From IMG/VR virus record IMGVR_UViG_2660238349_000007: 41,649 nucleotides of DNA. One strand, written 5' to 3'. The notes under the pieces were generated by a model. It was not told where the DNA came from. It made no database searches and saw only the letters and a list, made by a program, of their open reading frames with translations. This DNA is from a virus. Its lineage: Duplodnaviria > Heunggongvirae > Uroviricota > Caudoviricetes. A program made the translations under genes and the position numbers. Shown piece after piece: positions 1,874 to 20,304 of the stretch. The first letter of the stretch is position 1. Every line of letters starts with the position of its first letter.

Positions 1874-2070
1874 TACTGGCTGCGACATTTTTGAATAAAA
1901 GCGTCGACATTTCGGCGCTCATAACGAACTACTTTTGCACTGAAACGAATTGGTGCCAGGATAGCCCGATGACGATGCTTAATATTCCACTCACATAGCG
2001 TTTTCTGTGTAATACCTAACTTTTGGCATACTTCATCCGGGGTGAGTAAATCGTCGGGTTTCTCGCTCAT
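1870..2070 (-). CDS. xis: Excisionase / AlpA-family HTH DNA-binding protein
   Basis: 66-aa ORF beside int with an AlpA-like helix-turn-helix (LLTPDEVCQKLGITQKTLCEW); start overlaps the stop of the upstream helicase gene. Confidence 0.6.
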   Translation of the reverse strand: MSEKPDDLLTPDEVCQKLGITQKTLCEWNIKHRHRAILAPIRFSAKVVRYERRNVDAFIQKCRSQY

Positions 2071-3458
2071 GCTATACCTCTCTTTTTCATGGCATCGAGC
2101 AGGATGTCCTGCACTGTTCGTTTTGAGTTGCGCCGCTCCATCACCATTTCGTCCATAGTGTCGGCAGCAATAATGTGGTGAATAAATACCGGACGATTGT
2201 GTCCGGCCTGTATCTGTCTGGTTGGGCCGATACGTTCAATAATTTGCTGATACTGCTCCAGGTCCCACCAATGTGAGAAAAATACCAGTATGTTTCCGCC
2301 GTCCTGCATGTTCAGACCGTGGCCCGCGCTGGCTGGGTGTGCAAAGAGAACAGGAATCTTTCCGGAATTCCAGTCACGTAGTGTCTGTGGATCCTGGTCG
2401 AGGTGACGACCGCGAGGAAATGCTTTAAGCAAGCGTTCAAGATCGTGTTTCCAGTGATAAGCAACCAGCACAGGTGCGCCAGCTGCTTCGGTCAGTATGC
2501 TGTCCAGCGCCTGTAGTTTGGTGTCATGCAGTTCTGACCAACTTCCGGTGTCATCTGTGTATACTGCGCCGCTGGCGATTTGCAGACACTTCAGTGTCTT
2601 TGCCGCGGCGTTCGGTGCTTCTATGCCTTCGCCATTCAGCTCGAGGAACATTTCCTTTTCCATTTCACGATACTGCTGACGGGCCTTCGGCGGCATATCC
2701 ACGCGGATTACGTTATGGATGGGGTCTTTGATATCGAACCAGTCGGTCGCATCCAGCGAGAGGGTCACATCGGCTAACGCTCGCTGTATTTCACCCTGTG
2801 AGTGAGCAAAAGGCTCCAGTTTGGTCCAGCTCTGCCCCGGAAACTGTATCGATTTGAACCAGCGTGAGGTAAACGCGCCGTAAGTGCGCCCGAGACGTTG
2901 CCCCAGGTCCACAAACCACGATTGTCCCCACAAATCTACCAGGCCGTTCGGTGCTGGCGTACCGGTGAGATTTATCCAGCGCCGGACATACTTGTGCGCC
3001 ACTTTGCCCAGCGCCGCCGCGCGCTTACCACCACCTCGCAGCCGGAAGGATTTTAGCCGGGTGCTTTCATCCGGAATGACAGTACCGAACGGCCATCGTT
3101 CTCCCAATTCTTCAACCAGCCAGACAAGGTTATCGTAGTTGATGGTGAACACGCTTGCGTTGCTGTTCGCCAGCGCCGTAGAGCGCGCTTTGACATTACC
3201 AACAATCGGCTGTACCTCGATATTGCGCAGATGCTTCCATTTCAGCGCTTCATCCGGCCATGTGCTTGCTGCAACGCGTAGCGGCGCGAGGACCAGTGCG
3301 GGGCGTGTTTCTGCCCCTGCCATAAAGAGATCTTCCAGCGTAGTGAGCGTTGCCACGGTTTTACCCATCCCCATCCCTGCCCAGATGTTGCCGCGCAGGG
3401 TCTCGATTTGATGATTGATGATGAGATCTTGGTAGGGACGTGGTTTAAAAGTTATCAT
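2067..3458 (-). CDS. SNF2-family (DEAD/DEAH-like) helicase
   Basis: 463-aa ORF with Walker A GMGKT, a DEST box (VIPDESTRLK) and LTGTPAPN motif III. Confidence 0.8.
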   Translation of the reverse strand: MITFKPRPYQDLIINHQIETLRGNIWAGMGMGKTVATLTTLEDLFMAGAETRPALVLAPLRVAASTWPDEALKWKHLRNIEVQPIVGNVKARSTALANSNASVFTINYDNLVWLVEELGERWPFGTVIPDESTRLKSFRLRGGGKRAAALGKVAHKYVRRWINLTGTPAPNGLVDLWGQSWFVDLGQRLGRTYGAFTSRWFKSIQFPGQSWTKLEPFAHSQGEIQRALADVTLSLDATDWFDIKDPIHNVIRVDMPPKARQQYREMEKEMFLELNGEGIEAPNAAAKTLKCLQIASGAVYTDDTGSWSELHDTKLQALDSILTEAAGAPVLVAYHWKHDLERLLKAFPRGRHLDQDPQTLRDWNSGKIPVLFAHPASAGHGLNMQDGGNILVFFSHWWDLEQYQQIIERIGPTRQIQAGHNRPVFIHHIIAADTMDEMVMERRNSKRTVQDILLDAMKKRGIA

Positions 3459-4989: not shown

Positions 4990-7053
4990 TTAATCCTTAC
5001 GGTAGTGGTACGCCTCAAAACCGCCAGCGTTCAGTGGGATATCGGGTGCCCATTCGGGGTTAGTGGAGAGAAGCGCGGAAAGCGCTTTATCGTTGAAATC
5101 TTCTGTGTCAGGTGCTTCGGTGATCACCTCGTCGTGTACCGTCAACACAATGCTGTAACCGGCATCTTCGATAAGCGGCATGTTTCCGGCCAGAACGTCG
5201 CGGGCGGCTGCCTGGGTGACGTTCTCCACCAGCTTTCCGCCGTAGGTTTTGAGTCGTTGCCATTTACGCGAATAAGAGTTAACACCCATGTAGGTGATAT
5301 TTCCTTTTTCGATAACCGGAGACGGGTAGCATACAGCGCGTCCGGATGGTAGCTGTATGCGCAGCCACGCGCCATCACGTCGGATTTTAAGATAGCCGCA
5401 ATACAATGTTTTTTGCGGTGTGGCGATTGCTGTGCGGACGGTGCGCTCCAGTTCGTACCAGAAATCGCAGGTCGCCGGGTGCGCCCTGCGCCAGAGACGT
5501 TTAAGTGAGTCGCAGGCGATAAATACCCGTTCAGAAAGCCCGTAGGTTGACTTGCGTTTAACCGATTCGTCGTACCAGCTTTTCGCCTCGCGGATAACAT
5601 CGCGGGGAATGTTTGGTAGTGCGGCGTTCGCCAGCTCGTCGAGATCGAGACCGTAAACCAGTGCAAAAGTGATGAAGGCCGACACACCACCACCATAACC
5701 CAGACCGAGTTCCATGACTTTACCGATCTGACGCATGTGTTTATCAACATCATCTGGTGCAATATCGAAAGCTTTTGCATACGCCAGTTTATATAAGTCC
5801 GGACCCGTTCCGGCGTCGTACTCTCTGAATGCATTCAGTTTCCATTCTTCTCCCGCCAGCCATGCCAGCATACGGCCTTCAATGTTCGACAAGTCACTTA
5901 CCACCAGCTTTTTGCCTGTTGGCGCGATAATGCAGCCACGTAACGCTGAACTGGTTAGTTCCATGATATTGTCAAACAGCAGGTCTGCACATCCGGCTTT
6001 CAGTGCTTCGATGCCTTCGTCTATTTGTTCCTGTTTTAGTGAAGGGCGGGGAAGGTTCTGGGGCTGGAATAGCCGTCCGGCCCAACGACCGGTACGTGAC
6101 GCCCCGCAGAACTGTAGCGTACCGCGTAAGCGCCCGTCGTGGCTTACGCCTTTCATCAGTGCCTTGTATTTACTGGTGCTGGTAGTACTGGCCTGCAGGC
6201 GGATAGCCAGCAGTTCTTTCACGGCAGATGGTAAATCGGGGTCGGCAATACGACGTTCCAGAGTACTGCGTTGCATGTCTGGTAGCTCCACACCGTAGGA
6301 TTCAACAATGTGCTTAATCAACGCGTCTCGTTGTGTGGCTGCCTGCACTTCGCCATCAGTCATTTCCTGTGTACGCTTTGCTAGGCGCTTTTGTTCCTGG
6401 TCTACCGCTTCGATCGCAGCGCGTGCGAGTTGCATGTCCATGCAGACGCCCCGGTCATTGATCTGCTGATCACGATGCCAGAGCGCCAGTTCTGTCCCCT
6501 GATAATTCCACTTCGGCAGACGTTTATAGACTTCGCGCATTGCCTCGATATCCAGTCCGGCGTAAGCAACAAAGCGCCGCCATTCTTCCGGGTGGGTTTT
6601 ACTGGTGGCCCGACGCAGTTTGCTGTTTTTCGGGCGTGGCTTACAGAACAGCTGGATCAGCGCTTTACCTTCTTTGTCCTTCGCTTTGTCTTGCGGGACG
6701 CCTAGTACTTCGCAGAGTTCCCCCAGAGACCCCGGGAGACCGTGCGCCAGCGCCTGCACCATCGTGTCGCGCCAACGTTCGACTGGCGGTGCCAGTCGCG
6801 GCATTGCATAACGCAGAACGGTGCGGTCGAAGTGAGAGTTATGGAAATAAAGCAGGGTTTCAGGGTCTGCGATTGCTTCGTATAAGCCGTGTGGAATACC
6901 ACCACCGGCAGTGATATCCCACACGTTTACTGGCCCGTCGTTGATAGCCCATGCGAAAAGCATCACTTCAACGCCTTCGGCATACGCATGGGTACCGTTG
7001 TTGATCGGAATGTCACAATAGGTTTCCAGGTCGCCCCATAGTATATTGGACAT
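4990..7053 (-). CDS. Family-A DNA polymerase with N-terminal 3'-5' exonuclease domain
   Basis: 687-aa ORF; N-terminal exonuclease-like region (WGDLETY…) and C-terminal family-A palm motifs (…[12 protein letters not shown]…, …LTVHDEV…); GAGGA RBS. Confidence 0.88.
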
Positions 7054-9054: not shown

Positions 9055-10356
9055 TCAGATGAGGTCTGCGGTTAGCGTATCGTCGGATACGTCGTCGAAA
9101 TCATTTACAGGGTTGATATTGAGTGCGGGGCGTGGGTCTGACTCGGGAACGACGGTGGGTTTACCATCAGCTCGTGTTATCAGTGCCTCGACTTTTGACC
9201 AACGGCGCGGACTGGCCTTTTTGATAAGTTTTTCGGCTTTTGTGGGACTAATAAGTTTAAAGTCGAATACTTCTTCAGTTTTGTACCTGAACTGGTCCTT
9301 CAGAAGTGCGCGAGCTGCCTCTTCATCAATCCAGGCCCGGTTACCTTGTTTTCCTGTTACCAGTTTAAACCCCGGTACCGGATGTCCGGCATTGAGTTCA
9401 TTGTGAACCCGGTCCCGTACTGCCTTTAGCCAGGATTCAATAAAGTCGGCCTGGCTATAGATCTCCGCAAGCTGCTCAATGGTTAACAGAGGTACACGTG
9501 CACTGGCATTGGTGATTATTTCGCTGACAGGCTTTGTCAGATCTTCAAAATCGCTGGCCGCTGTTTGTAAATGCTGCATTTTCTGGGCAGTGCAAATAGC
9601 TTTTGCTTTACAGAAGCGGCACTGTTTTTCTCCAGGTATGAAGTTTTCCAGCGGTAGTGTCTCAATGCCTTCGCATTCAGCAATATTGAGAACAAGGATC
9701 GCACTGGTTGCGGCCTCCTGTGCCCGTTCACCGAAAGACTGAAGTTCCTGTACGGTTAACGACCATTCTGAAACGTGGTTGAGCCTTGGCTGGTGAATAA
9801 ATAATCTTACAGTCTCAAAGTCATACAGCATGCTGAATTGTTCGAGCGCACCCAGAGCATACAGTTGTAGTTGCTCATTTTGTTCTGCATCAATGCGGAC
9901 GCCTTTGCCATATTTCAGGTCGTGGATTTGTAATTCGTTACCCGCGATGATTATGCCGTCGGCAGTTCCGAAAGATTCTTCCACACCCGTTATATGTGAG
10001 AAATCAACACGTTGTTCAACCAATAGTTCATTATTCTGTGCAAGAGTCCAGACCGTATCAACATACCGGCCAACGGCTTCGACCATTTCATCATCCACCT
10101 GTGGGCCAGATGTATCATCAGGATTTTCGCGAAGGGGGTATGAGCCGAGAAACATAGAAACATTGCATCCGGCGTAGTGTTCCGGATGGCTTTGCCTGTT
10201 TCGTAGAACTTTTTCAGCAAGCGCGTGCGCTGCAGTGCCCTCGATTGCAAAAGTTGTTTCTTTATCCGGTTGTGTAGCCTCCAGCGCCAGACTTCCTGGG
10301 CAGCGCATCCATCGATGCGCTGATGATGGAGAAAGTTGTGCATGAACGTCTGGCAT
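9055..10356 (-). CDS. PD-(D/E)XK / Cas4-like nuclease (DUF2800-like)
   Basis: 433-aa ORF; N-terminal [14 protein letters not shown] and a C-terminal Cys cluster (CRFC…C) match the RecB/Cas4-type nuclease pattern. Confidence 0.65.
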
Positions 10357-12040: not shown

Positions 12041-12664
12041 CTAACGTTTACGGCGGTAAATACGGTGTTCGATCATTACACCTATGATCTGTAAGTTCAT
12101 ATCTGCACTACGAAAAATAGGGTAATCAGGATTTAGGGGGATTAATTCAAAGTCGTCGATGCCGATTCCTAATGGACGGTATTTTTTAAATGTAGCTTCG
12201 TGACCGTCGTTTTTGGCGACAACAAACTCCCCTGGTGCAGGACATAGATCAGGATCGATGATAACAATGTCTCCTTCTTTAAACTCTGGTTGCATGCTGT
12301 CGCCATCGATACGTAATGCGAAGCATGTTTCTGGAATGTCAGAGTCTGCCAAAATATATTCAAATTCCCCTGTCAGATCTGTTATGTCTCTTGCTTCTGT
12401 AAGCTCTCCTGCCTGAACGTAACTTAATATAGGTATGCGTCTGGTACTTATCTCCGCGAGAGGCATAATATTTTTACCGTTCAGTAGCCAGTCTGGGCTA
12501 CATTTCAAGGCCTTAGCCAGATCCAGAAGATTGCGTGGCTTTCTGGTTCGTCCACTTTCGATGGATTCTATGGATTGTTGGCTAACCCCTGCAGAATTCG
12601 CTACTTCCACTTGAGTCATTCCTAATTCCAAACGACGTGCTTTAAAACGGGCTGCGAGAGACAT
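12041..12664 (-). CDS. cI: CI-like repressor (HTH-XRE plus S24 LexA-like peptidase domain)
   Basis: N-terminal HTH (LGMTQVEVANSAGVSQQSIESIESG); C-terminal autocleavage domain with catalytic Ser/Lys context (GDSMQPEF…KKY); start trimmed to MSLAARF. Confidence 0.85.
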   Translation of the reverse strand: MSLAARFKARRLELGMTQVEVANSAGVSQQSIESIESGRTRKPRNLLDLAKALKCSPDWLLNGKNIMPLAEISTRRIPILSYVQAGELTEARDITDLTGEFEYILADSDIPETCFALRIDGDSMQPEFKEGDIVIIDPDLCPAPGEFVVAKNDGHEATFKKYRPLGIGIDDFELIPLNPDYPIFRSADMNLQIIGVMIEHRIYRRKR

Positions 12665-12784
12665 GGGATTAGTCCTTCTGGGTTGTATTAATGTGTATCT
12701 CCACATTAAAAACAATTTTTGTTGTATTTGACAAACCTCGTTTGTTGTTGCTAAATACCACTAAAATTGTATGAGGTGAAAGCA
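12665..12784. promoter_or_regulatory. Divergent immunity control region (PRM/PR-like) with operator palindromes
   Basis: Intergenic between divergent cI and cro; perfect palindrome TTAATGTG-tatctc-CACATTAA at 12688-12709; repeated GTTGTATT; TTGACA at 12728-12733. Confidence 0.5.
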
Positions 12785-12997
12785 ATGACCTTAGCGACCC
12801 GAGTAAAAGAACGACGTAAAGAACTCAAAATGACGCAAGTTACGTTGGCTGAGCTCACAGGAGTGAGCCAGCAGGCAATAAACAGAATTGAAAGTGGTGT
12901 TATTGCTCGGCCACGTTATCTTCTTGAAATGTCTATAGCATTGGATTGCGACCCTAATTGGCTGTTGTATGGCTCACAAAACGATAAAAAGGCTTAA
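12785..12997 (+). CDS. cro: Cro-like HTH-XRE regulator
   Basis: 70-aa HTH protein (MTQVTLAELTGVSQQAINRIESG) divergent from cI; GAGGTG RBS 6 nt upstream of ATG 12785. Confidence 0.65.
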   Translation: MTLATRVKERRKELKMTQVTLAELTGVSQQAINRIESGVIARPRYLLEMSIALDCDPNWLLYGSQNDKKA

Positions 12998-13000
12998 CCC

Positions 13001-15193
13001 ATGTCCGATAGCAAACCATGGGGAGCTACGCCTGATGAGTGGTTTCATTTCGACCTGGTATTGGGGAGAACTGATCATCTTCTGCCAGTTGTATGTAACC
13101 CCGGTGCGACCATATCCCCTGATAGTAAACTGAAAGCGTTGGGTAAGACGCCGAGTCGCTATAACCGGGACCGCCAGGTCACCGGTATTGCTCAATGGAC
13201 CGGGCATGTTGTTACTGAGCATGATTTTGCCCGCTGGTCGAATGAACCGGATTATGGCATCTGCGTGCGTACAGGCCATGGCTGGCTGGCGCTGGACTGT
13301 GATAGCGAAGATGAAGACATTCAGGCAGATATTCGTAAAACGCTTGTGCAACTTCTGGGTGAGTTGCCGCCACGACGCTGGCGAGCAAACAGTAATAAGT
13401 GTCTGTATCTGCTGGCCGTTGATGGTGATTTCCGTAAGCGTATCCATCGCCTGGCGGGGGATATGGGCATTATCGAGTTGCTGGCGAACGGGCAGCAGTT
13501 CGTTGCCTGCGGTACGCACAGCAGCGGCGCGCGTATTGAATGGGACGGCGGTTTGCCGGATGAACCTCCGGCTATTACTGGTGAGCAGCTTGAAACGCTG
13601 TGGCAGCGCCTGGCTGAACAACTCCCTGTGTCGGTAACCACCGAAGCGGGCAACACGAAGATGCGCGACCGATCAGCATTCACGCCCGGCGCGACGGATG
13701 ATACAGCTGAATATCTTGATGCCAATGGCTGGACGCTGCTGGATGGTGCAAATGGTGAACGATATATCCGCTGTCCGTTTGAAGACGGCCACAGTAGCGG
13801 GGGCGATCCAACAAGCACAGTTTATTTTCCTGCGGGAACCGCGGGCTTTGAGCAGGGGCATTTTAAATGCCTGCATGCCAGTTGTGCGCATCGTGATGAC
13901 GGAGATTTCCTTAATGCCATCGGGATCCGCAACGACGATTTCGAAGATCTGACCAGCACCGAAGTGGCGGAACCTTTACCGCTGCCTGCTTTCGAGCGTG
14001 ATAAATGGGGGCGTATCGAGGCAACCATCAGCAACGCAGCCAAAGCAGTAGTACGCCCTGATTTTGTGGACATCGATATTCGCTTTGACCTGTTCCGCGA
14101 CGAAATCATGTTTGCCCCGGCAGGATCCGGACAATGGCGGGCATTCACCGATGCGGATTATGCGCGCCTGCGCATCACGATGGAAAAGCGGGGATTTAAA
14201 CCTGTTGGCCGTGAACTTATTCGCGATGTGGTGTTACTTGCAGCCGATGAACAACCATTCGATTCAGCGATCGCCTGGCTGAACGGACTGGAGTGGGATG
14301 GGGTGCCGCGCATCGAATGTTTCTACCATACGCACTTCGGTACCGCCGACACGCCTTATACCCGTGCGGTGTCTATGTACATGTGGACCGCGTTGGCGGG
14401 GCGAGTACTGGAGCCAGGCATCAAAGCGGATATGGTGCCGATCCTCGTTGGTCCGCAGGGCTGCGGTAAGTCTTCCGGAGTGGAGGCACTGAGCCCTGAT
14501 CCTGCGTTTTTTACTGAAATCTCTTTTGCCGAAAAAGACGATGATCTCGCTCGAAAAATGCGTGGTCGGCTGGTGGCAGAGATTGGTGAACTGCGCGGAC
14601 TTAATACCAAAGAGCTGGAGTCAATCAAAGCGTTTGTGACGCGTACTCACGAAAACTGGATCCCGAAATACCGGGAGTTCGCCACCCAGTTTCCTCGTCG
14701 CCTGGTGTTCGTTGGTACCACCAATGAGGACGAATTCCTTGCGGACAAGACTGGTAACCGTCGCTGGCTCCCCGTGGAAGTGTCGAAAGTCGACGTGAAA
14801 GCGATAAAAAGAGATCTCCTTTTACTTTGGGCTGAGGCTCGTGAGGTGTTTCAGCGTCTGGGGGGTATCCAGTTCCGTGAGGCTGAACAACTGGCAGCGA
14901 GTGTCCATGAACAGTACACCATCAAGGATGCTTGGCTTGAAACGGTAGAGAAATGGCTCGACACGCCAGACCTGATGACTAATGAACTTCCGCGAAATTG
15001 CGAATTTTTACGCGCAAGTGATGTTTTGCGTGATGCGATTGGGCTAAATCCTGACCGCATCGGAAAACGCGAAGAAATGCGAATTAGTAATGTTTTGCAA
15101 AATTGCGGGTATAAGCGTGCCCAAAGGCGAATTGGGGGGAAAATGACTCGAATTTTTGAGGCGGTGTCCCAACCTGTACCAGCCTCAAAATAG
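13001..15193 (+). CDS. Primase-helicase (primase/polymerase N-domain plus D5/VirE-type P-loop NTPase)
   Basis: 730-aa ORF; Walker A GPQGCGKSS, Walker B-like RLVFVGTTNE; N-terminal acidic primase-like motifs (LALDCDSEDED). Confidence 0.75.
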   Translation: MSDSKPWGATPDEWFHFDLVLGRTDHLLPVVCNPGATISPDSKLKALGKTPSRYNRDRQVTGIAQWTGHVVTEHDFARWSNEPDYGICVRTGHGWLALDCDSEDEDIQADIRKTLVQLLGELPPRRWRANSNKCLYLLAVDGDFRKRIHRLAGDMGIIELLANGQQFVACGTHSSGARIEWDGGLPDEPPAITGEQLETLWQRLAEQLPVSVTTEAGNTKMRDRSAFTPGATDDTAEYLDANGWTLLDGANGERYIRCPFEDGHSSGGDPTSTVYFPAGTAGFEQGHFKCLHASCAHRDDGDFLNAIGIRNDDFEDLTSTEVAEPLPLPAFERDKWGRIEATISNAAKAVVRPDFVDIDIRFDLFRDEIMFAPAGSGQWRAFTDADYARLRITMEKRGFKPVGRELIRDVVLLAADEQPFDSAIAWLNGLEWDGVPRIECFYHTHFGTADTPYTRAVSMYMWTALAGRVLEPGIKADMVPILVGPQGCGKSSGVEALSPDPAFFTEISFAEKDDDLARKMRGRLVAEIGELRGLNTKELESIKAFVTRTHENWIPKYREFATQFPRRLVFVGTTNEDEFLADKTGNRRWLPVEVSKVDVKAIKRDLLLLWAEAREVFQRLGGIQFREAEQLAASVHEQYTIKDAWLETVEKWLDTPDLMTNELPRNCEFLRASDVLRDAIGLNPDRIGKREEMRISNVLQNCGYKRAQRRIGGKMTRIFEAVSQPVPASK

Positions 15194-15346
15194 AGGTTGG
15201 TACATTTTAACTAATTGAATTTAAAGGTCAGTACCAACTGTACCATCTGTACCAACCTAATTACTAAGAACCCCATATATATGTATAAGTCGCTTGGGGA
15301 AAAGGTTTGAAAAGAGCTGGTACAGGTGGGTACAGGTTGGTACAGG
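15172..15346. repeat. Iteron array (TGGTACAG motif, inverted and direct copies); candidate replication origin
   Basis: TGTACCA at 15175, 15230, 15239, 15248 (about 9-bp spacing) and GGTACAG at 15319, 15329, 15339 (10-bp spacing), flanking an AT-rich core with CCCCATATATATG. Confidence 0.55.
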
Positions 15347-15474
15347 CCGAACAAGGAATTTTTTGCACATAACAGCGTGTAATAAGCGAATCGGAACTGC
15401 GTTATCCACACCCACGGATAAACAGACGTGGTTCTCAGAAAATTTTTTCGTAGCAAAACGTAGAGGTCAGAGCT

Positions 15475-15897
15475 ATGCGTAATATTCAACAGGTTTTAGA
15501 GCGCTGGGGTGGCTGGGCAGCGAGTGAAGGTGGTAGCGTCTACTTTCCTCCTGTTGCAGCCGGGTTTAAGAATCTGCTACCCGCGACGCAGTCTGGAAGG
15601 CTGAAATGCAGTGACAATGACGGTCTTATCATCAACTCCGCTATGAGCTGCCTGAAGAAAAAAGATCCGTATCTGTGCACGCTCCTTGAGTGGCATTACG
15701 TCCAGGCCATGCCCGTGCGGGCGATGGGTGAGAAGCTCGGCGTATCTCACACCCACGTTCTGAAGAGGCTTCAGGCGGCAGAGGGATTTATTGACGGTTG
15801 CTTAGCCATGCTGGATGTGGTGCTCGAAATGGATCAGTCGGTTCAGTCAAAGCCTCAGGCTATCAGGACTTTGCGTAGGAGCTGCTCGGCGGCATAA
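15475..15897 (+). CDS. Q: Late-gene antiterminator Q-like protein
   Basis: 140-aa ORF resembling Q/QuuD-type antiterminators as recalled (MR.IQ.VLERWG.WAA…, Cys pairs); sits upstream of the lysis cassette. Confidence 0.6.
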   Translation: MRNIQQVLERWGGWAASEGGSVYFPPVAAGFKNLLPATQSGRLKCSDNDGLIINSAMSCLKKKDPYLCTLLEWHYVQAMPVRAMGEKLGVSHTHVLKRLQAAEGFIDGCLAMLDVVLEMDQSVQSKPQAIRTLRRSCSAA

Positions 15898-15928
15898 TAT
15901 CCAGCAATCAATCACGTAAGGGAACCAG

Positions 15929-16270
15929 ATGGCTCTGATCAGCGTTCGCAACAGATTTGAAAGCTTCATGGAACAGAGGTACCCAGACCTGTCGTTGCAG
16001 GTCAAAGGTAATATTAGCGCATCAATGAAGGCTCAACTTGGCATCAGGATTGAACGAGAATTGTACAGTGAAGATGTTACTTACTGTGATTCAGCAGTTC
16101 AGTTGATGTGGACACTCTTTCAGGCAGGTGTTCTGGCCGAACGAAGAGCTACCAGCGTTACGCTTCCTGCGCTGAAGGCAAAGCCGGATAGCTTCTACGA
16201 TGCGGGTTATAACGAAGGTATTCAGGACTGTCGTAAACATCTGACGGCATCAGGCATCAAGGTAAGATAA
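15929..16270 (+). CDS. Hypothetical protein
   Basis: 113-aa ORF with AAGGGA RBS between Q and the late-promoter/terminator region. Confidence 0.45.
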   Translation: MALISVRNRFESFMEQRYPDLSLQVKGNISASMKAQLGIRIERELYSEDVTYCDSAVQLMWTLFQAGVLAERRATSVTLPALKAKPDSFYDAGYNEGIQDCRKHLTASGIKVR

Positions 16271-16337
16271 AAAATAGTTGTGGAATTCCAAAAAGCCGAT
16301 TAGCCTGATATCCGTTGAAAACAGTTCATCACGAAGA

Positions 16338-16361
16338 GGCTTCCGCAAGGGGGCCTTTTTT
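16338..16361 (+). terminator. Candidate intrinsic terminator (GNRA-type loop plus T6)
   Basis: GGCTTCC-gcaa-GGGGGCC stem-loop (two G-U pairs) followed by TTTTTT. Confidence 0.4.
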
Positions 16362-16589
16362 ATTGCCCCATTCTGGGGAAAAGTTAATAAAACAGGGCTT
16401 TCGCTGCGAAAAAACGCTATGCAGTTTTTGCCCTTTTTTATGCACCTTTTATTCACTCGAATTTCGTCATTCTGGACCACTTAAGTTGATTAAATAGGCC
16501 TTTCATCGCAAATCTATTGCGAGCGGTGATCGTGTGGTTCCTATAACGTACATTATGTTAAATAACTTCCTTTTTTAACAAATTTAACA

Positions 16590-16614
16590 AGGTTCGCTAT
16601 GGCGAACTTTTTTT
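16590..16614 (+). terminator. Intrinsic terminator, tR'-like, ahead of the lysis genes
   Basis: GTTCGC-tatg-GCGAAC perfect hairpin followed by TTTTTTT. Confidence 0.6.
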
Positions 16615-18681: not shown

Positions 18682-20304
18682 ATGCCGTTACCATTCCCCT
18701 TCGATTTTAAACATCCTGATTACCAGATGGTTTTTGAATGGCGGATGGAACGCCTACAGCGCATTCGCCAGAATCCTGAAATATTGCCTGCACTAAAACA
18801 GTTTTACCGAACCAATCCGGCTCAGTTCATCATCGACTGGGGCATGACAACGGACCCGCGTAATATTGATTATGGCCTGCCGGTGACCATTCCGTTTTTA
18901 CTCTTCCCTAAGCAGGAGGAGTGGATCCACTGGATTATGGAACGCTGGAGCAATCGGGAGAATGGTATTACCGAAAAATCCCGTGAAATGGGACTCAGTT
19001 GGACCGCGATCGGACTGGCATGTTCGCTTTGTCTCTTCAACAAAGAAATGGTTATCGGTTTCGGCTCCCGTAAAGAGGAATACGTCGACAGCACCGGTGA
19101 CCCGAAAGCATTGTTCTGGAAGGTGCGCAAGTTCGTGGAAACACTGCCTGTAGAGTTTCGCGGTTCGTGGAGCGAGAAGAAGCACGCGCCATATATGCGT
19201 GTTGAGTTTCCTGAAACTGGTGCCGTTATCAAAGGCGAGGCTGGCGATAATATTGGTCGTGGTGACCGTACCACGCTTTATCTGGTTGATGAGGCTGCAT
19301 TCCTTCAGCGTCCTCTGCTGATTGATGCGGCGTTGTCACAAACGACGCGTTGCCGTATCGACCTGAGTTCAGTTAACGGCATGGCGAACCCGTTCGCTCA
19401 GAAGCGTCATGGCGGGAAGATACCGGTATTCACATTCCACTGGCGGGATGATCCTCGCAAGGATGAAGAGTGGTATCGCAGGGAATGCGAGAAAATCGAT
19501 AATCCGGTGGTGGTGGCACAGGAACTTGATCTGAACTACAGCGCATCAGCGGAAGGCGTCCTGATTCCATCCGAATGGGTACAGGCTGCCGTTGATGCGC
19601 ATATCAAACTGGGTATCCAGCCAACAGGCAAACGACTTGGCGCGATGGATGTCGCCGACGAAGGCAGGGACAAAAATGCCTTTTCCACCCGTCATGGCTT
19701 CCTCCTGGAAAATGTGCGGGAATGGTCCGGTGTGGGCAGCGACATTTATCAGTCCGTCGAGAAGGTTTTCGGCTTTTGCGAACAGGATAACCTCGAAGAG
19801 TTTCGCTTTGACGAGGACGGGCTGGGCGCTGGCGTTCGCGGCGATGCACGCGCTATCAACGAACTGCGTAACGCTGTGCGTCGACCGTCAATACTCGCCA
19901 CACCGTTTCGAGGTAGTGGCGCGGTATTTGATCCGGATGATGAAGCTGTTCGCGGGGACAACGGGCAAGCCGCACGTCTGAACAAGGACTTCTTCGCTAA
20001 CGCCAAAGCCCAGAGCTGGTGGCGGTTACGTAAACTTTTTCAGAATACCTGGCGCGCCGTGGTTGAAGGTATGGCTTACAACCCGGACGAAATCATCTCA
20101 ATCAGCAGTAGCATGGCACTCAAAGATAAACTCATCATCGAGCTTTCGCAGCCGACCTATTCCATTAATGGTGTGGGAAAAATCGTTATTGATAAACAGC
20201 CTGATGGAACCCGATCGCCAAACCTTGCCGACTCGGTGATGATCAACTATGCCCCAATGAATTCAGCCCTGAACATCTGGGAGCTGCTAGGGAGACAGGC
20301 CTGA
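18682..20304 (+). CDS. Terminase large subunit
   Basis: 540-aa ORF with Walker B-like LYLVDEAAF and a C-terminal nuclease-like region; position between TerS and portal. Confidence 0.8.

What the first reader, a model, noticed from the sequence alone, without database searches (positions are those of the whole stretch)
15172..15346. Iteron array immediately downstream of the primase-helicase gene: candidate replication origin
The heptamer GGTACAG or its complement occurs at least seven times in 175 bp. Four inverted copies are spaced about 9 bp apart and three direct copies 10 bp apart, flanking an AT-rich segment with a CCCCATATATATG element. Helical-phase iterons beside an AT-rich region next to an initiator gene are the classic architecture of phage and plasmid origins.
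Basis: partly seen in the sequence, partly recalled or inferred. Interest (0 to 1): 0.55.

Follow-up and report, generated by a model that had tools for sequence, protein, structure and literature searches.

The report
Phage replication origin beside its initiator
The repeat cluster just after the primase-helicase gene of this E. coli prophage is almost certainly the phage's replication origin, of the kind already known from staphylococcal pathogenicity islands; across relatives, the repeat sequence and the last few amino acids of the initiator change together.

Summary
GGTACAG occurs exactly six times in 15174-15345, three per strand, plus two one-mismatch copies and one degenerate copy (P about 3e-15). 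The full unit is about AGGTTGGTACAG.

More than 90 relatives, from Enterobacteria to Burkholderiales, keep the same layout right after the homologous gene:
- one or two repeats over the stop codon plus an inverted partner
- an AT-rich stretch
- three repeats 9 bp apart
- a conserved (AT)n/GGGAAAGGTT core
- three inverted repeats 10 bp apart

The repeat word differs between relatives in about 14 classes. It tracks residues 714-720 of the protein, which form a strand of the predicted C-terminal winged helix. Prophages 99-100% identical in Rep residues 1-700, CI, Cro and Q differ only in a roughly 243-bp cassette (15143-15385) holding those codons and the array.

The helicase domain is homologous to SaPI1 Rep1 (E 8e-34). 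SaPI origins have the same position and layout.

Verdict: a SaPI/PICI-type Rep-ori replicon in a complete temperate myovirus, a new member of a known kind. Interest is moderate.

The parts
13001..15193 (+). Rep gene: 730-aa PrimPol-type primase, VapE (SF3-like) helicase and C-terminal winged helix
   Evidence: Pfam VapE-like_dom E 2.3e-60 at residues 427-639. PHROG DNA primase at residues 5-317 and DNA helicase at 281-712. PF09250 Prim-Pol is recorded for relatives. Residues 393-657 match PDB 7PDS_A (SaPI1 Rep1) at E 8.2e-34. DxD at residues 100-102 and Walker A at 484-491.
15140..15160 (+). Codons K714-E720 (KMTRIFE): strand beta-3 of the predicted wing, the inferred specificity determinant
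   Evidence: The AlphaFold2 model gives helices at residues 641-653, 672-680 and 689-701, and strands at 704-711 and 714-721, with pLDDT 80-92 over this part. These residues co-vary with the repeat word.
15143..15385 (.). Specificity cassette of about 243 bp (last 16-17 Rep codons plus the whole array), exchanged between otherwise near-identical prophages
   Evidence: Window versus L032: 97-100% identity over 13001-15145, 70-80% over 15146-15385, 99% over 15386-16600. Breakpoints were located.
15165..15185 (-). Degenerate iteron TGTCCCAAC plus iteron CTGTACCAGCCT, inside the last Rep codons
   Evidence: Relatives carry one or two copies at the same place.
15194..15205 (+). Iteron AGGTTGGTACAT, the inverted partner of 15174-15185; together they form a palindrome spanning the stop codon
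   Evidence: As RNA the hairpin folds at -20.5 kcal/mol, z -5.2, and it scores as terminator-like. The T-run is not conserved in relatives.
15205..15227 (.). AT-rich segment 1 (TTTTAACTAATTGAATTTAAAGG), the least stable duplex in the region
   Evidence: 25-mers in 15200-15229 are in the top 0.1-0.6% least stable of the window. The sequence is partly conserved in relatives.
15228..15258 (-). Left iteron triplet, 9-bp spacing: CAGTACCAA, CTGTACCAT, CTGTACCAACCT
   Evidence: The 9-bp spacing is conserved across relatives.
15259..15314 (.). Central conserved core: AATTACTAAGAACCCC-(AT)n-TATAAGTCG..GGGGAAAAGGTTTGAAAAG. Likely melting region plus a conserved GGGAAAGGTT element of unknown partner.
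   Evidence: Conserved in all enterobacterial iteron classes. GGGAAAGGTT is also present in the Burkholderiales loci L010 and L018. Low stability at 15260-15289.
15315..15345 (+). Right iteron triplet, 10-bp spacing: AGCTGGTACAG, GTGGGTACAG, GTTGGTACAG
   Evidence: The 10-bp spacing is conserved across relatives.
15355..15367 (.). Conserved right flank GGAATTTTTTGCA, role unknown
   Evidence: GTAATTT(T/A)TTGCA is kept in nearly all relatives, including Burkholderiales L010, whatever gene lies downstream.

Best explanation
Positions 15165-15367 are the phage's replication origin, recognised by the protein encoded immediately upstream.

**The protein.** It is one polypeptide with three parts: a PrimPol-type primase, a VapE/SF3-type self-loading helicase, and a C-terminal winged helix.

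**Proposed mechanism**, by analogy with SaPI Rep:
1. The winged helix binds the roughly 10-12-bp iterons (AGGTTGGTACAG).
2. The invariant recognition helix probably reads the shared AGGT/ACC part of the iteron.
3. The wing (strands beta-2 and beta-3, residues about 704-721) reads the variable part.
4. The two opposed triplets load hexamers facing each other across the (AT)n core.
5. The duplex melts there or in the AT-rich stretch at 15205-15227.
6. The helicase encircles single strands, the N-terminal primase makes the first primers, and the phage's own PolA-type polymerase can extend them.

**Shown versus inferred.** Shown here: the repeats are real, the layout is conserved, the repeats co-vary only with the Rep tail, and the helicase is homologous to SaPI1 Rep1. 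Inferred: binding, melting site, bidirectional loading and priming.
For: - **Enrichment.** Six exact heptamers in 172 bp against 0.011 expected.
- **Conserved architecture, changing word.** The same layout sits right after the homologous gene in Yersinia phage YeP4, in 20 of the 25 genome loci (those holding the gene's 3' end and its downstream DNA), and in about 90 IMG/VR loci. At least 14 different repeat words occur.
- **One-to-one wing/word mapping.**
  - MTRIF: TGTACCAAC
  - MTRIW: TGTACCCAC
  - KMRIF: TGTCCCAAC
  - KQRIW: TGTCCCTACC
  - KCKVW: TGGAACCACC
  - QQRIF: TAGACAACC
  - QQRVW and QIRVW: TAGACCACC
  - SQRVY: TGTAACAACC
  - V.KVW: TGTAACCACC
  - LMKVW: TGTTACCAC
  - GCKVW: TGCAACCAC
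  - NYKLW: CGCTACCACC

- **Aromatic/base rule.** In all 14 enterobacterial classes, F or Y pairs with A, and W pairs with C or T, at the base 5' of the terminal ACC. This includes four matched pairs that share the other half of the iteron.
- **Natural swap.** A cassette of about 243 bp (15143-15385) is replaced between prophages that are 97-100% identical on both sides.
- **Decoupling from other regulators.** L033 and L034 are 99-100% identical in CI, Cro, Q and Rep residues 1-700.
- **Homology.** Rep residues 393-657 match SaPI1 Rep1 (7PDS) at E 8.2e-34. SaPI and PICI origins lie immediately 3' of rep, with two opposed iteron sets around an AT-rich centre, and a C-terminal winged helix sets specificity (PMC9371898; PMC6092414).
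- **Predicted fold.** The C-terminus is predicted as helix-helix-helix followed by two strands, a winged-helix topology. Fold hits are almost all winged helices, with 7pds_A at rank 6 of 48,164.
- **Duplex stability.** Two stability minima lie between the iteron groups.
- **No competing cluster.** There are no iterons inside rep, and no second cluster anywhere in the window.
Against: - **No experiment.** Nothing shows binding or replication for this phage family, and I found no paper on it.
- **Linkage as an alternative.** The wing codons lie only about 5-25 bp from the first iteron. Part of the covariation could reflect physical linkage within a mobile cassette rather than recognition, and the classes are not phylogenetically independent.
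- **Wing strand not sufficient alone.** VQRVW goes with GTAAC or GTTAC, depending on a beta-2 residue.
- **Uninformative skew.** GC skew shows no switch at the site. In a phage whose skew follows transcription this says little either way.
Confidence: 0.85

Rival explanations
1. The repeats do bind Rep, but they act mainly as a regulatory element. Rep would autoregulate its own gene, or gate transcription running from rep into the Q antiterminator gene, helped by the stop-codon palindrome acting as a terminator. The true origin would lie elsewhere.
For: The palindrome at 15175-15204 scores as terminator-like (12-bp stem, then TTTTAACT) and folds strongly as RNA (-20.5 kcal/mol, z -5.2). Q lies directly downstream.
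Against: The T-run after the palindrome is missing in several relatives (L032, L004), while the palindrome itself always consists of iterons. A regulatory role does not explain the opposed triplets around a conserved (AT)n core, which match validated SaPI and PICI origins. The window holds no other iteron cluster that could be the real origin. A dual role cannot be excluded.
Confidence: 0.08
2. The repeats are operators for CI, Cro or Q (the alternative the first reader named).
For: The array lies in the early regulatory region, between rep and Q.
Against: L033 and L034 have CI, Cro and Q 99-100% identical to the window but different repeats. L046 has the window's repeats, but its CI is 26% and its Q 43% identical, with no Cro match. 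The cI-cro intergenic region (12716-12766) holds TTTGTTGT-type repeats and no GGTACAG.
Confidence: 0.01
3. The array is a packaging (pac/cos) or partition (centromere-like) site bound by terminase small subunit or a ParB-like protein.
For: Short phased repeats also occur in such sites (general knowledge, not tested here).
Against: The terminase genes start about 3 kb away (TerL at 18682-20304), and I did not see any partition gene. The repeats co-vary with the Rep tail inside a 243-bp cassette that includes no other gene.
Confidence: 0.02
4. The repeats are chance or neutral, with no function.
For: None found.
Against: P is about 3e-15 for the cluster. Number, orientation and spacing are conserved across hosts from E. 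coli to Burkholderiales, while the word itself changes in all copies at once.
Confidence: 0.005

Closest known systems
SaPI Rep-ori replicons of Staphylococcus aureus pathogenicity islands (SaPI1 Rep1, PDB 7PDS; SaPI5 PriRep5, a primase-Rep fusion)
   Same: The helicase domain is homologous (E 8.2e-34 to 7PDS_A). In both, the origin lies immediately 3' of rep, short iterons form two opposed sets around an AT-rich centre, and a C-terminal winged helix gives specificity. Primase is fused to Rep as in SaPI5 (PMC9371898).
   Different: The host is a Gram-negative bacterium. The element is a complete temperate myovirus, not a satellite. The iterons are longer (about 10-12 bp against 5-6). An extra palindromic iteron pair overlaps the stop codon. 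A conserved GGGAAAGGTT core and a right flank are present. Sequence similarity of the C-terminal domain to Rep1 is not detectable; there is only weak fold similarity.
Gram-negative PICI replicon EcCICFT073 pri-rep-ori (shown to drive plasmid replication in E. coli)
   Same: Same host species and same origin position and layout: iterons in both orientations right after the stop codon, around an AT-rich stretch (PMC6092414; sequence at L108 about 10003-10240).
   Different: That Pri-Rep is a D5_N/DUF5906/Pox_D5 protein with no BLASTP similarity to the window Rep. Its iteron is CTGTCTACC. It belongs to a satellite. [quoted passage not shown]
Satellite phage P4 alpha protein with ori and crr
   Same: One polypeptide with primase, SF3 helicase and a C-terminal origin-binding domain that recognises short iterons. 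This description of alpha is from my own knowledge; PMC6092414 says only that P4 replication depends on the alpha protein and its cognate ori site.
   Different: The window Rep matches Pfam VapE, not the D5_N or Pox_D5 families. That P4 alpha itself is a D5-type helicase rests on my own knowledge and was not tested here. P4 needs two separate sites (ori and crr), whereas the window has a single cluster.
Archaeal plasmid pRN1 ORF904 (prim/pol plus SF3 helicase)
   Same: Same domain order. The minimal replicon needs 166 bp of sequence downstream; the abstract as displayed is cut off before it names the gene, and I take it to be orf904 (PMC4234260, listed).
   Different: Archaeal host. I did not compare the sequences or check for iterons.
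Lambda O/ori-lambda and iteron plasmids (RepA/pi type)
   Same: An initiator binds phased repeats next to an AT-rich region.
   Different: In lambda the iterons lie inside the O gene, and the initiator recruits host DnaB through P. Plasmid iterons are 17-22-bp direct repeats bound by non-helicase Rep proteins. Here the initiator is itself the helicase and primase, and the repeats are short and opposed. These statements about lambda and plasmids rest on established knowledge.

Membership tests
SaPI/PICI-type Rep-ori replicon | Initiator is a self-loading SF3/VapE-type helicase homologous to a SaPI Rep | tested here: met
   7PDS_A (SaPI1 Rep1) E 8.2e-34 over residues 393-657. Pfam VapE-like_dom E 2.3e-60. 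Walker A GPQGCGKS at residues 484-491.
SaPI/PICI-type Rep-ori replicon | Primase encoded next to, or fused with, Rep | tested here: met
   PHROG 1156 DNA primase E 3e-40 at residues 5-317. PF09250 Prim-Pol is recorded for close relatives. DxD motif at residues 100-102.
SaPI/PICI-type Rep-ori replicon | C-terminal winged-helix domain that recognises the iterons | tested here: inconclusive
SaPI/PICI-type Rep-ori replicon | Origin immediately 3' of the rep reading frame | tested here: met
   The first iterons overlap the last Rep codons (15165-15185) and the array ends at 15345. Relatives show the same.
SaPI/PICI-type Rep-ori replicon | At least two iterons on each side of an AT-rich centre, in opposite orientation | tested here: met
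   Three minus-strand copies (15228-15258) and three plus-strand copies (15315-15345) flank the (AT)n core.
SaPI/PICI-type Rep-ori replicon | Allelic Rep C-termini matched to cognate iterons | tested here: met
   At least 14 wing/iteron classes with one-to-one mapping. Cassette swap. Decoupling from CI, Cro and Q.
SaPI/PICI-type Rep-ori replicon | Rep plus ori suffice for autonomous replication | not testable with these tools
   Needs a plasmid maintenance assay like the one used for EcCICFT073 (PMC6092414).
PICI (phage-inducible chromosomal island) as an element | Satellite that lacks its own full set of virion and lysis genes and depends on a helper phage | tested here: not met
   The window encodes integrase, CI, Cro, Q, TerL, portal, protease, tail sheath and tape measure, plus PolA, a helicase and an exonuclease. 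YeP4 is a deposited 35-kb phage genome record. The window is a phage using a PICI-type replicon, not a PICI.
P4 alpha-type replicon | D5_N/Pox_D5-type helicase, and a two-site origin (ori plus crr) | tested here: not met
   Pfam gives VapE and only a sub-threshold DUF5906 hit. No similarity to the D5-type EcCICFT073 Pri-Rep. Only one iteron cluster in the window.
Lambda-type O/P replicon | Iterons inside the initiator gene, and a helicase-loader partner gene | tested here: not met
   No GGTACAG between 13001 and 15164. Q follows rep directly, with no P-like gene.

The most novel reading that the evidence does not exclude
The last 16-17 codons of Rep and the roughly 200-bp origin form one portable specificity cassette that recombines freely between otherwise identical prophages.

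Within it, a simple readable code links wing residues to iteron bases:
- The aromatic residue at position 719 is F or Y when the iteron reads ..A-ACC, and W when it reads ..C/T-ACC. This holds in 14 of 14 enterobacterial classes and in four matched pairs.
- Residues 715-716 and one beta-2 residue track the 5' half of the iteron.

If the code is real, it would allow orthogonal phage and plasmid replicons to be designed by rule. It would also imply diversifying selection on origin specificity, for example to avoid cross-talk between co-resident prophages or hijacking by satellites. Co-resident prophages of different classes were seen twice: L012 with L015, and L078 with L082.
Probability: 0.35. 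Interest if true: 0.6.

Novelty: new member of a known kind. Interest (0 to 1): 0.4.

Why it matters
- **Annotation.** It places the origin of a widespread but unstudied group of enterobacterial temperate myoviruses. These occur in 144 of 5,426 complete E. coli genomes, including O111, O55:H7 and ETEC strains. The origin is not annotated in any record I saw.
[quoted passage not shown] Here it is used by complete phages, which bears on how satellites and phages exchange replication modules.
- **A testable recognition map.** The natural cassette swaps and the wing-to-iteron correspondence give a ready map of how a Rep winged helix reads its iteron. The SaPI Rep1-DNA structure did not resolve this, because only single-stranded DNA in the channel was visible.
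- **Limit.** It remains a predicted origin of a known type, so the surprise for a specialist is moderate.

Tried and rejected
- **IHF site in AT-rich segment 1.** The reverse strand reads ATTCAATTAGTTA, one mismatch from WATCAANNNNTTR. Only 3 of 75 distinct origins have a perfect match, against about 1.4 expected. Not supported.
- **DnaA boxes as part of the origin.** The only two TTWTNCACA matches in the window lie at 15361-15369 and 15402-15410. The total count is not above chance. The perfect TTATCCACA box lies outside the swapped cassette and is absent from relatives with other downstream genes. I do not count it as part of the origin.
- **Stop-codon palindrome as an intrinsic terminator.** The hairpin is strong, but the T-run is not conserved. 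At best a secondary role.
- **GC-skew switch at the origin.** None seen; the skew follows transcription direction. Uninformative.
- **Known RNA families.** Nothing was found in 14900-15700 except a sub-threshold c4-a1b1 hit inside Q (E 0.22).
- **Sigma-70 promoter in the core.** Nothing passed the scan on the plus strand.
- **Orphan copies of this origin.** I looked for copies without rep, such as satellites or plasmids, in complete E. coli genomes. The matches of at least 90% identity that were listed all overlap the VapE gene, and none of the 104 matches lies on a plasmid.
- **Direct homology to the validated E. coli PICI Pri-Rep.** None.
- **Strong fold match of the C-terminal domain to the SaPI Rep or P4 alpha winged helix.** Only weak matches.
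- **Literature on this phage family's origin.** Nothing found.
Full report
**Observation**

The region was read directly. GGTACAG or its complement occurs 13 times in the window, against 2.72 +/- 1.61 in shuffles. Six exact copies fall in 15174-15345:
- minus strand: 15174, 15238, 15247
- plus strand: 15319, 15329, 15339

The Poisson chance of that cluster is about 3e-15. Allowing one mismatch to the longer word TTGGTACAG adds 15197-15205 (+) and 15229-15237 (-). A degenerate unit lies at 15165-15173.

Seven or more copies requires counting near copies. The 9-bp-spaced minus group has three members, with the fourth minus copy sitting 55 bp upstream, inside the gene's last codons.

**Anatomy**, in exact coordinates

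| Coordinates | Strand | Element |
|---|---|---|
| 15165-15185 | - | One degenerate and one good iteron, inside the last Rep codons |
| 15191-15193 | + | Stop codon |
| 15194-15205 | + | Inverted partner; with 15174-15185 it forms a 12-bp-stem palindrome |
| 15205-15227 | . | AT-rich stretch |
| 15228-15258 | - | Three iterons, 9 bp apart |
| 15259-15314 | . | Core containing CCCCATATATATG and GGGGAAAAGGTT |
| 15315-15345 | + | Three iterons, 10 bp apart |
| 15355-15367 | . | Conserved flank GGAATTTTTTGCA |

The two least stable duplex stretches of the region are 15200-15229 (top 0.1% of the window) and 15260-15289 (top about 1%).

**Context**

The window is a complete temperate myovirus prophage of E. 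coli. It is 100% identical to NZ_CP014111 and others, and 144 of 5,426 complete genomes hold a relative. It encodes:
- an integrase
- a leftward operon with a helicase, a PolA-type polymerase and an exonuclease
- an S24-type CI (12041-12715, minus strand) and Cro (12767-12997)
- the 730-aa replication protein (13001-15193)
- Q (15475-15897)
- terminase, portal, protease, tail sheath and tape measure

The replication protein has three parts:
- a PrimPol-type primase at the N-terminus: PHROG 1156, PF09250 in relatives, and a DxD motif
- a VapE helicase: Pfam E 2.3e-60, with Walker A at residues 484-491
- a C-terminal region of about 90 residues

**Comparative test**

Yersinia phage YeP4 has a primase gene 71% identical in DNA. 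It has the same layout right after its stop codon, but with the word AGGTTGTCTAG in place of AGGTTGGTACAG.

I then collected 25 loci from species genomes and about 100 distinct IMG/VR contigs. Nearly every locus with the full gene shows the same sequence of elements. The repeat word differs between loci. All copies within one locus change together. Number, orientation and spacing stay fixed.

Between the triplets, the core TTACTAAGAACCCC-(AT)n-TATAAGTCG..GGGGAAAGGTTAGAAAA is conserved regardless of the iteron word. GGGAAAGGTT survives even in Burkholderiales metagenome-assembled genomes.

**What the word tracks**

The repeat word maps one-to-one onto the residues that follow a conserved RR(I/V)xGK motif near the C-terminus:

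| Wing residues | Iteron word |
|---|---|
| (M/V)(T/V)R(I/V)F | TGTACCAAC |
| MTRIW | TGTACCCAC |
| KMRIF | TGTCCCAAC |
| KQRIW | TGTCCCTACC |
| K(C/S)K(V/L/I)W | TGGAACCACC |
| QQRIF | TAGACAACC |
| QQRVW, QIRVW | TAGACCACC |
| SQRVY | TGTAACAACC |
| V(C/S/L)KVW, VQRVW(V/L) | TGTAACCACC |
| VLKVWV | TGTATCCAC |
| LMKVW | TGTTACCAC |
| MTKAW | TG(T/A)AGCCACC |
| GCKVW | TGCAACCAC |
| NYKLW | CGCTACCACC |

- In all 14 enterobacterial classes, F or Y goes with A, and W goes with C or T, at the base 5' of the terminal ACC. Four matched pairs share the rest of the iteron.
- The wing strand alone is not the whole story. VQRVW goes with GTAAC or GTTAC, depending on a beta-2 residue (L versus S).
- These codons (15140-15160) do not overlap the iterons, so the correspondence is not a coding artefact.
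- The extreme tail after residue 721 is encoded by the iterons and varies trivially with them.

**Natural swap experiments**

- Window versus L032 is 97-100% identical over 13001-15145, 70-80% over 15146-15385, and 99% over 15386-16600. The left breakpoint is at codon 714/715.
- L033 and L034 are 99-100% identical to the window in Rep residues 1-700, CI, Cro and Q, yet carry KCKVWE and GGAACCAC iterons.
- L046 carries the window's wing and iterons, but its CI is 26% and its Q 43% identical.

The repeats therefore belong with the Rep tail and with no other regulator. The cI-cro operator region has unrelated TTTGTTGT repeats.

**Link to known systems**

- **SaPI Rep.** Residues 393-657 match PDB 7PDS chain A, SaPI1 Rep1, at E 8.2e-34. 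According to PMC9371898, SaPI Reps are self-loading helicase-initiators. A C-terminal winged helix binds 5-6-nt iterons. The origin lies immediately downstream of rep, with 6-12 iterons, an AT-rich centre and at least two iterons on each side in opposite orientation. SaPI5 has primase and Rep fused. The window fits every sequence-level feature.
- **Predicted C-terminal fold.** An AlphaFold2 model of residues 600-730 gives a winged-helix topology with pLDDT 80-92. The variable residues 714-720 form strand beta-3 of the wing. Fold searches return mostly winged-helix domains, including 7pds_A at rank 6, but with weak scores. I rate that feature as inconclusive.
- **E. coli PICI.** EcCICFT073 has a pri-rep-ori module that was shown to drive plasmid replication, and its origin has the same layout (PMC6092414; sequence). 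Its Pri-Rep is a D5-type protein unrelated in sequence to the window's. [quoted passage not shown]
- **pRN1.** The prim/pol-helicase ORF904 replicon likewise needs 166 bp of downstream sequence (PMC4234260, listed; the abstract as displayed is cut off before it names the gene).

**Mechanism proposed**

Rep's winged helix binds the iterons. The invariant helix H3 (KREEMRISNVLQNCGY) probably reads the shared AGGT/ACC part, and the wing reads the variable part. Hexamers assemble on the two opposed triplets. The (AT)n core or the AT-rich stretch at 15205-15227 melts. The helicase then encircles single strands, and the N-terminal primase starts synthesis for the phage's PolA. All of these steps are inferred from the SaPI model.

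Two things are unexplained:
- the role of the stop-codon palindrome
- the roles of the conserved GGGAAAGGTT and GTAATTTTTTGCA elements

Because those two elements are conserved across all iteron classes, a conserved part of Rep or a host factor may recognise them.

**Rivals and dead ends**

- **Terminator role for the palindrome.** It is structurally plausible in the window. The T-run is not conserved in relatives, so this is at best a secondary role.
- **IHF.** Enrichment was not supported.
- **DnaA boxes.** The two matches right of the array are not conserved with the origin.
- **Rfam.** Nothing found.
- **GC skew.** Uninformative.
- **Orphan copies.** None found in complete E. coli genomes.

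**Verdict**

This is a SaPI/PICI-type Rep-iteron origin in an enterobacterial temperate myovirus, a new member of a known kind. The most interesting by-product is the portable cassette of about 243 bp and the apparent wing-to-base code, which are directly testable.

Noticed in passing
window 15361-15369 and 15402-15410: These are the only two matches to the DnaA-box consensus TTWTNCACA in the whole 41.6-kb window. One is a perfect TTATCCACA. Both lie within 65 bp to the right of the iteron array. The total count is not above chance, and the perfect box lies outside the swapped cassette and is absent from relatives with other downstream genes.
   Followed up: partly
window 2067-3458 (-), 4990-7053 (-), 9055-10356 (-): This temperate phage carries its own helicase, PolA-type DNA polymerase and exonuclease on the leftward operon, in addition to the primase-helicase. 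Its replication apparatus therefore appears largely self-contained.
   Followed up: no
window 15161-15190; relatives: The extreme C-terminal tail of Rep (AVSQPVPASK here, EPLEPRGTT or PVEPPGTTL in others) is encoded by the iterons themselves. It varies in length from 2 to about 25 residues, and some relatives stop right after the wing. The tail looks like a by-product of the gene/origin overlap.
   Followed up: partly
L012 with L015 (Xenorhabdus yunnanensis XENO-10); L078 with L082 (IMG genome 2837389702): In each case two prophages of this family sit in one genome and carry different wing/iteron classes: GTAACAACC with GTAACCACC, and TAGACCAC with GGAACCAC. This fits selection against sharing an origin specificity. 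The identical duplicate L013/L014 in Symbiopectobacterium is a counter-example.
   Followed up: partly
window 15271-15290; L044 and L048: The (AT)n run in the core varies in length between relatives like a microsatellite. The window's copy is interrupted by a G (ATATATATGTATAAG), unlike most relatives.
   Followed up: no
L108 10003-10240 (E. coli CFT073, EcCICFT073): The region just after the D5-type pri-rep gene of this PICI shows CTGTCTACC-type iterons in both orientations. The layout matches the window even though the initiator is unrelated.
   Followed up: partly
window 15540-15580 (+): There is a weak Rfam match to c4-a1b1, the targets of the C4 antisense RNA of P1/P7-type immunity systems, inside the Q gene. 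It scores E 0.22 and 16.3 bits against a gathering score of 46.7. Probably chance.
   Followed up: no
window 12716-12766: The cI-cro intergenic region contains repeated TTTGTTGT / ACAAAC motifs that are probably the immunity operators. They are unrelated to the iterons.
   Followed up: no
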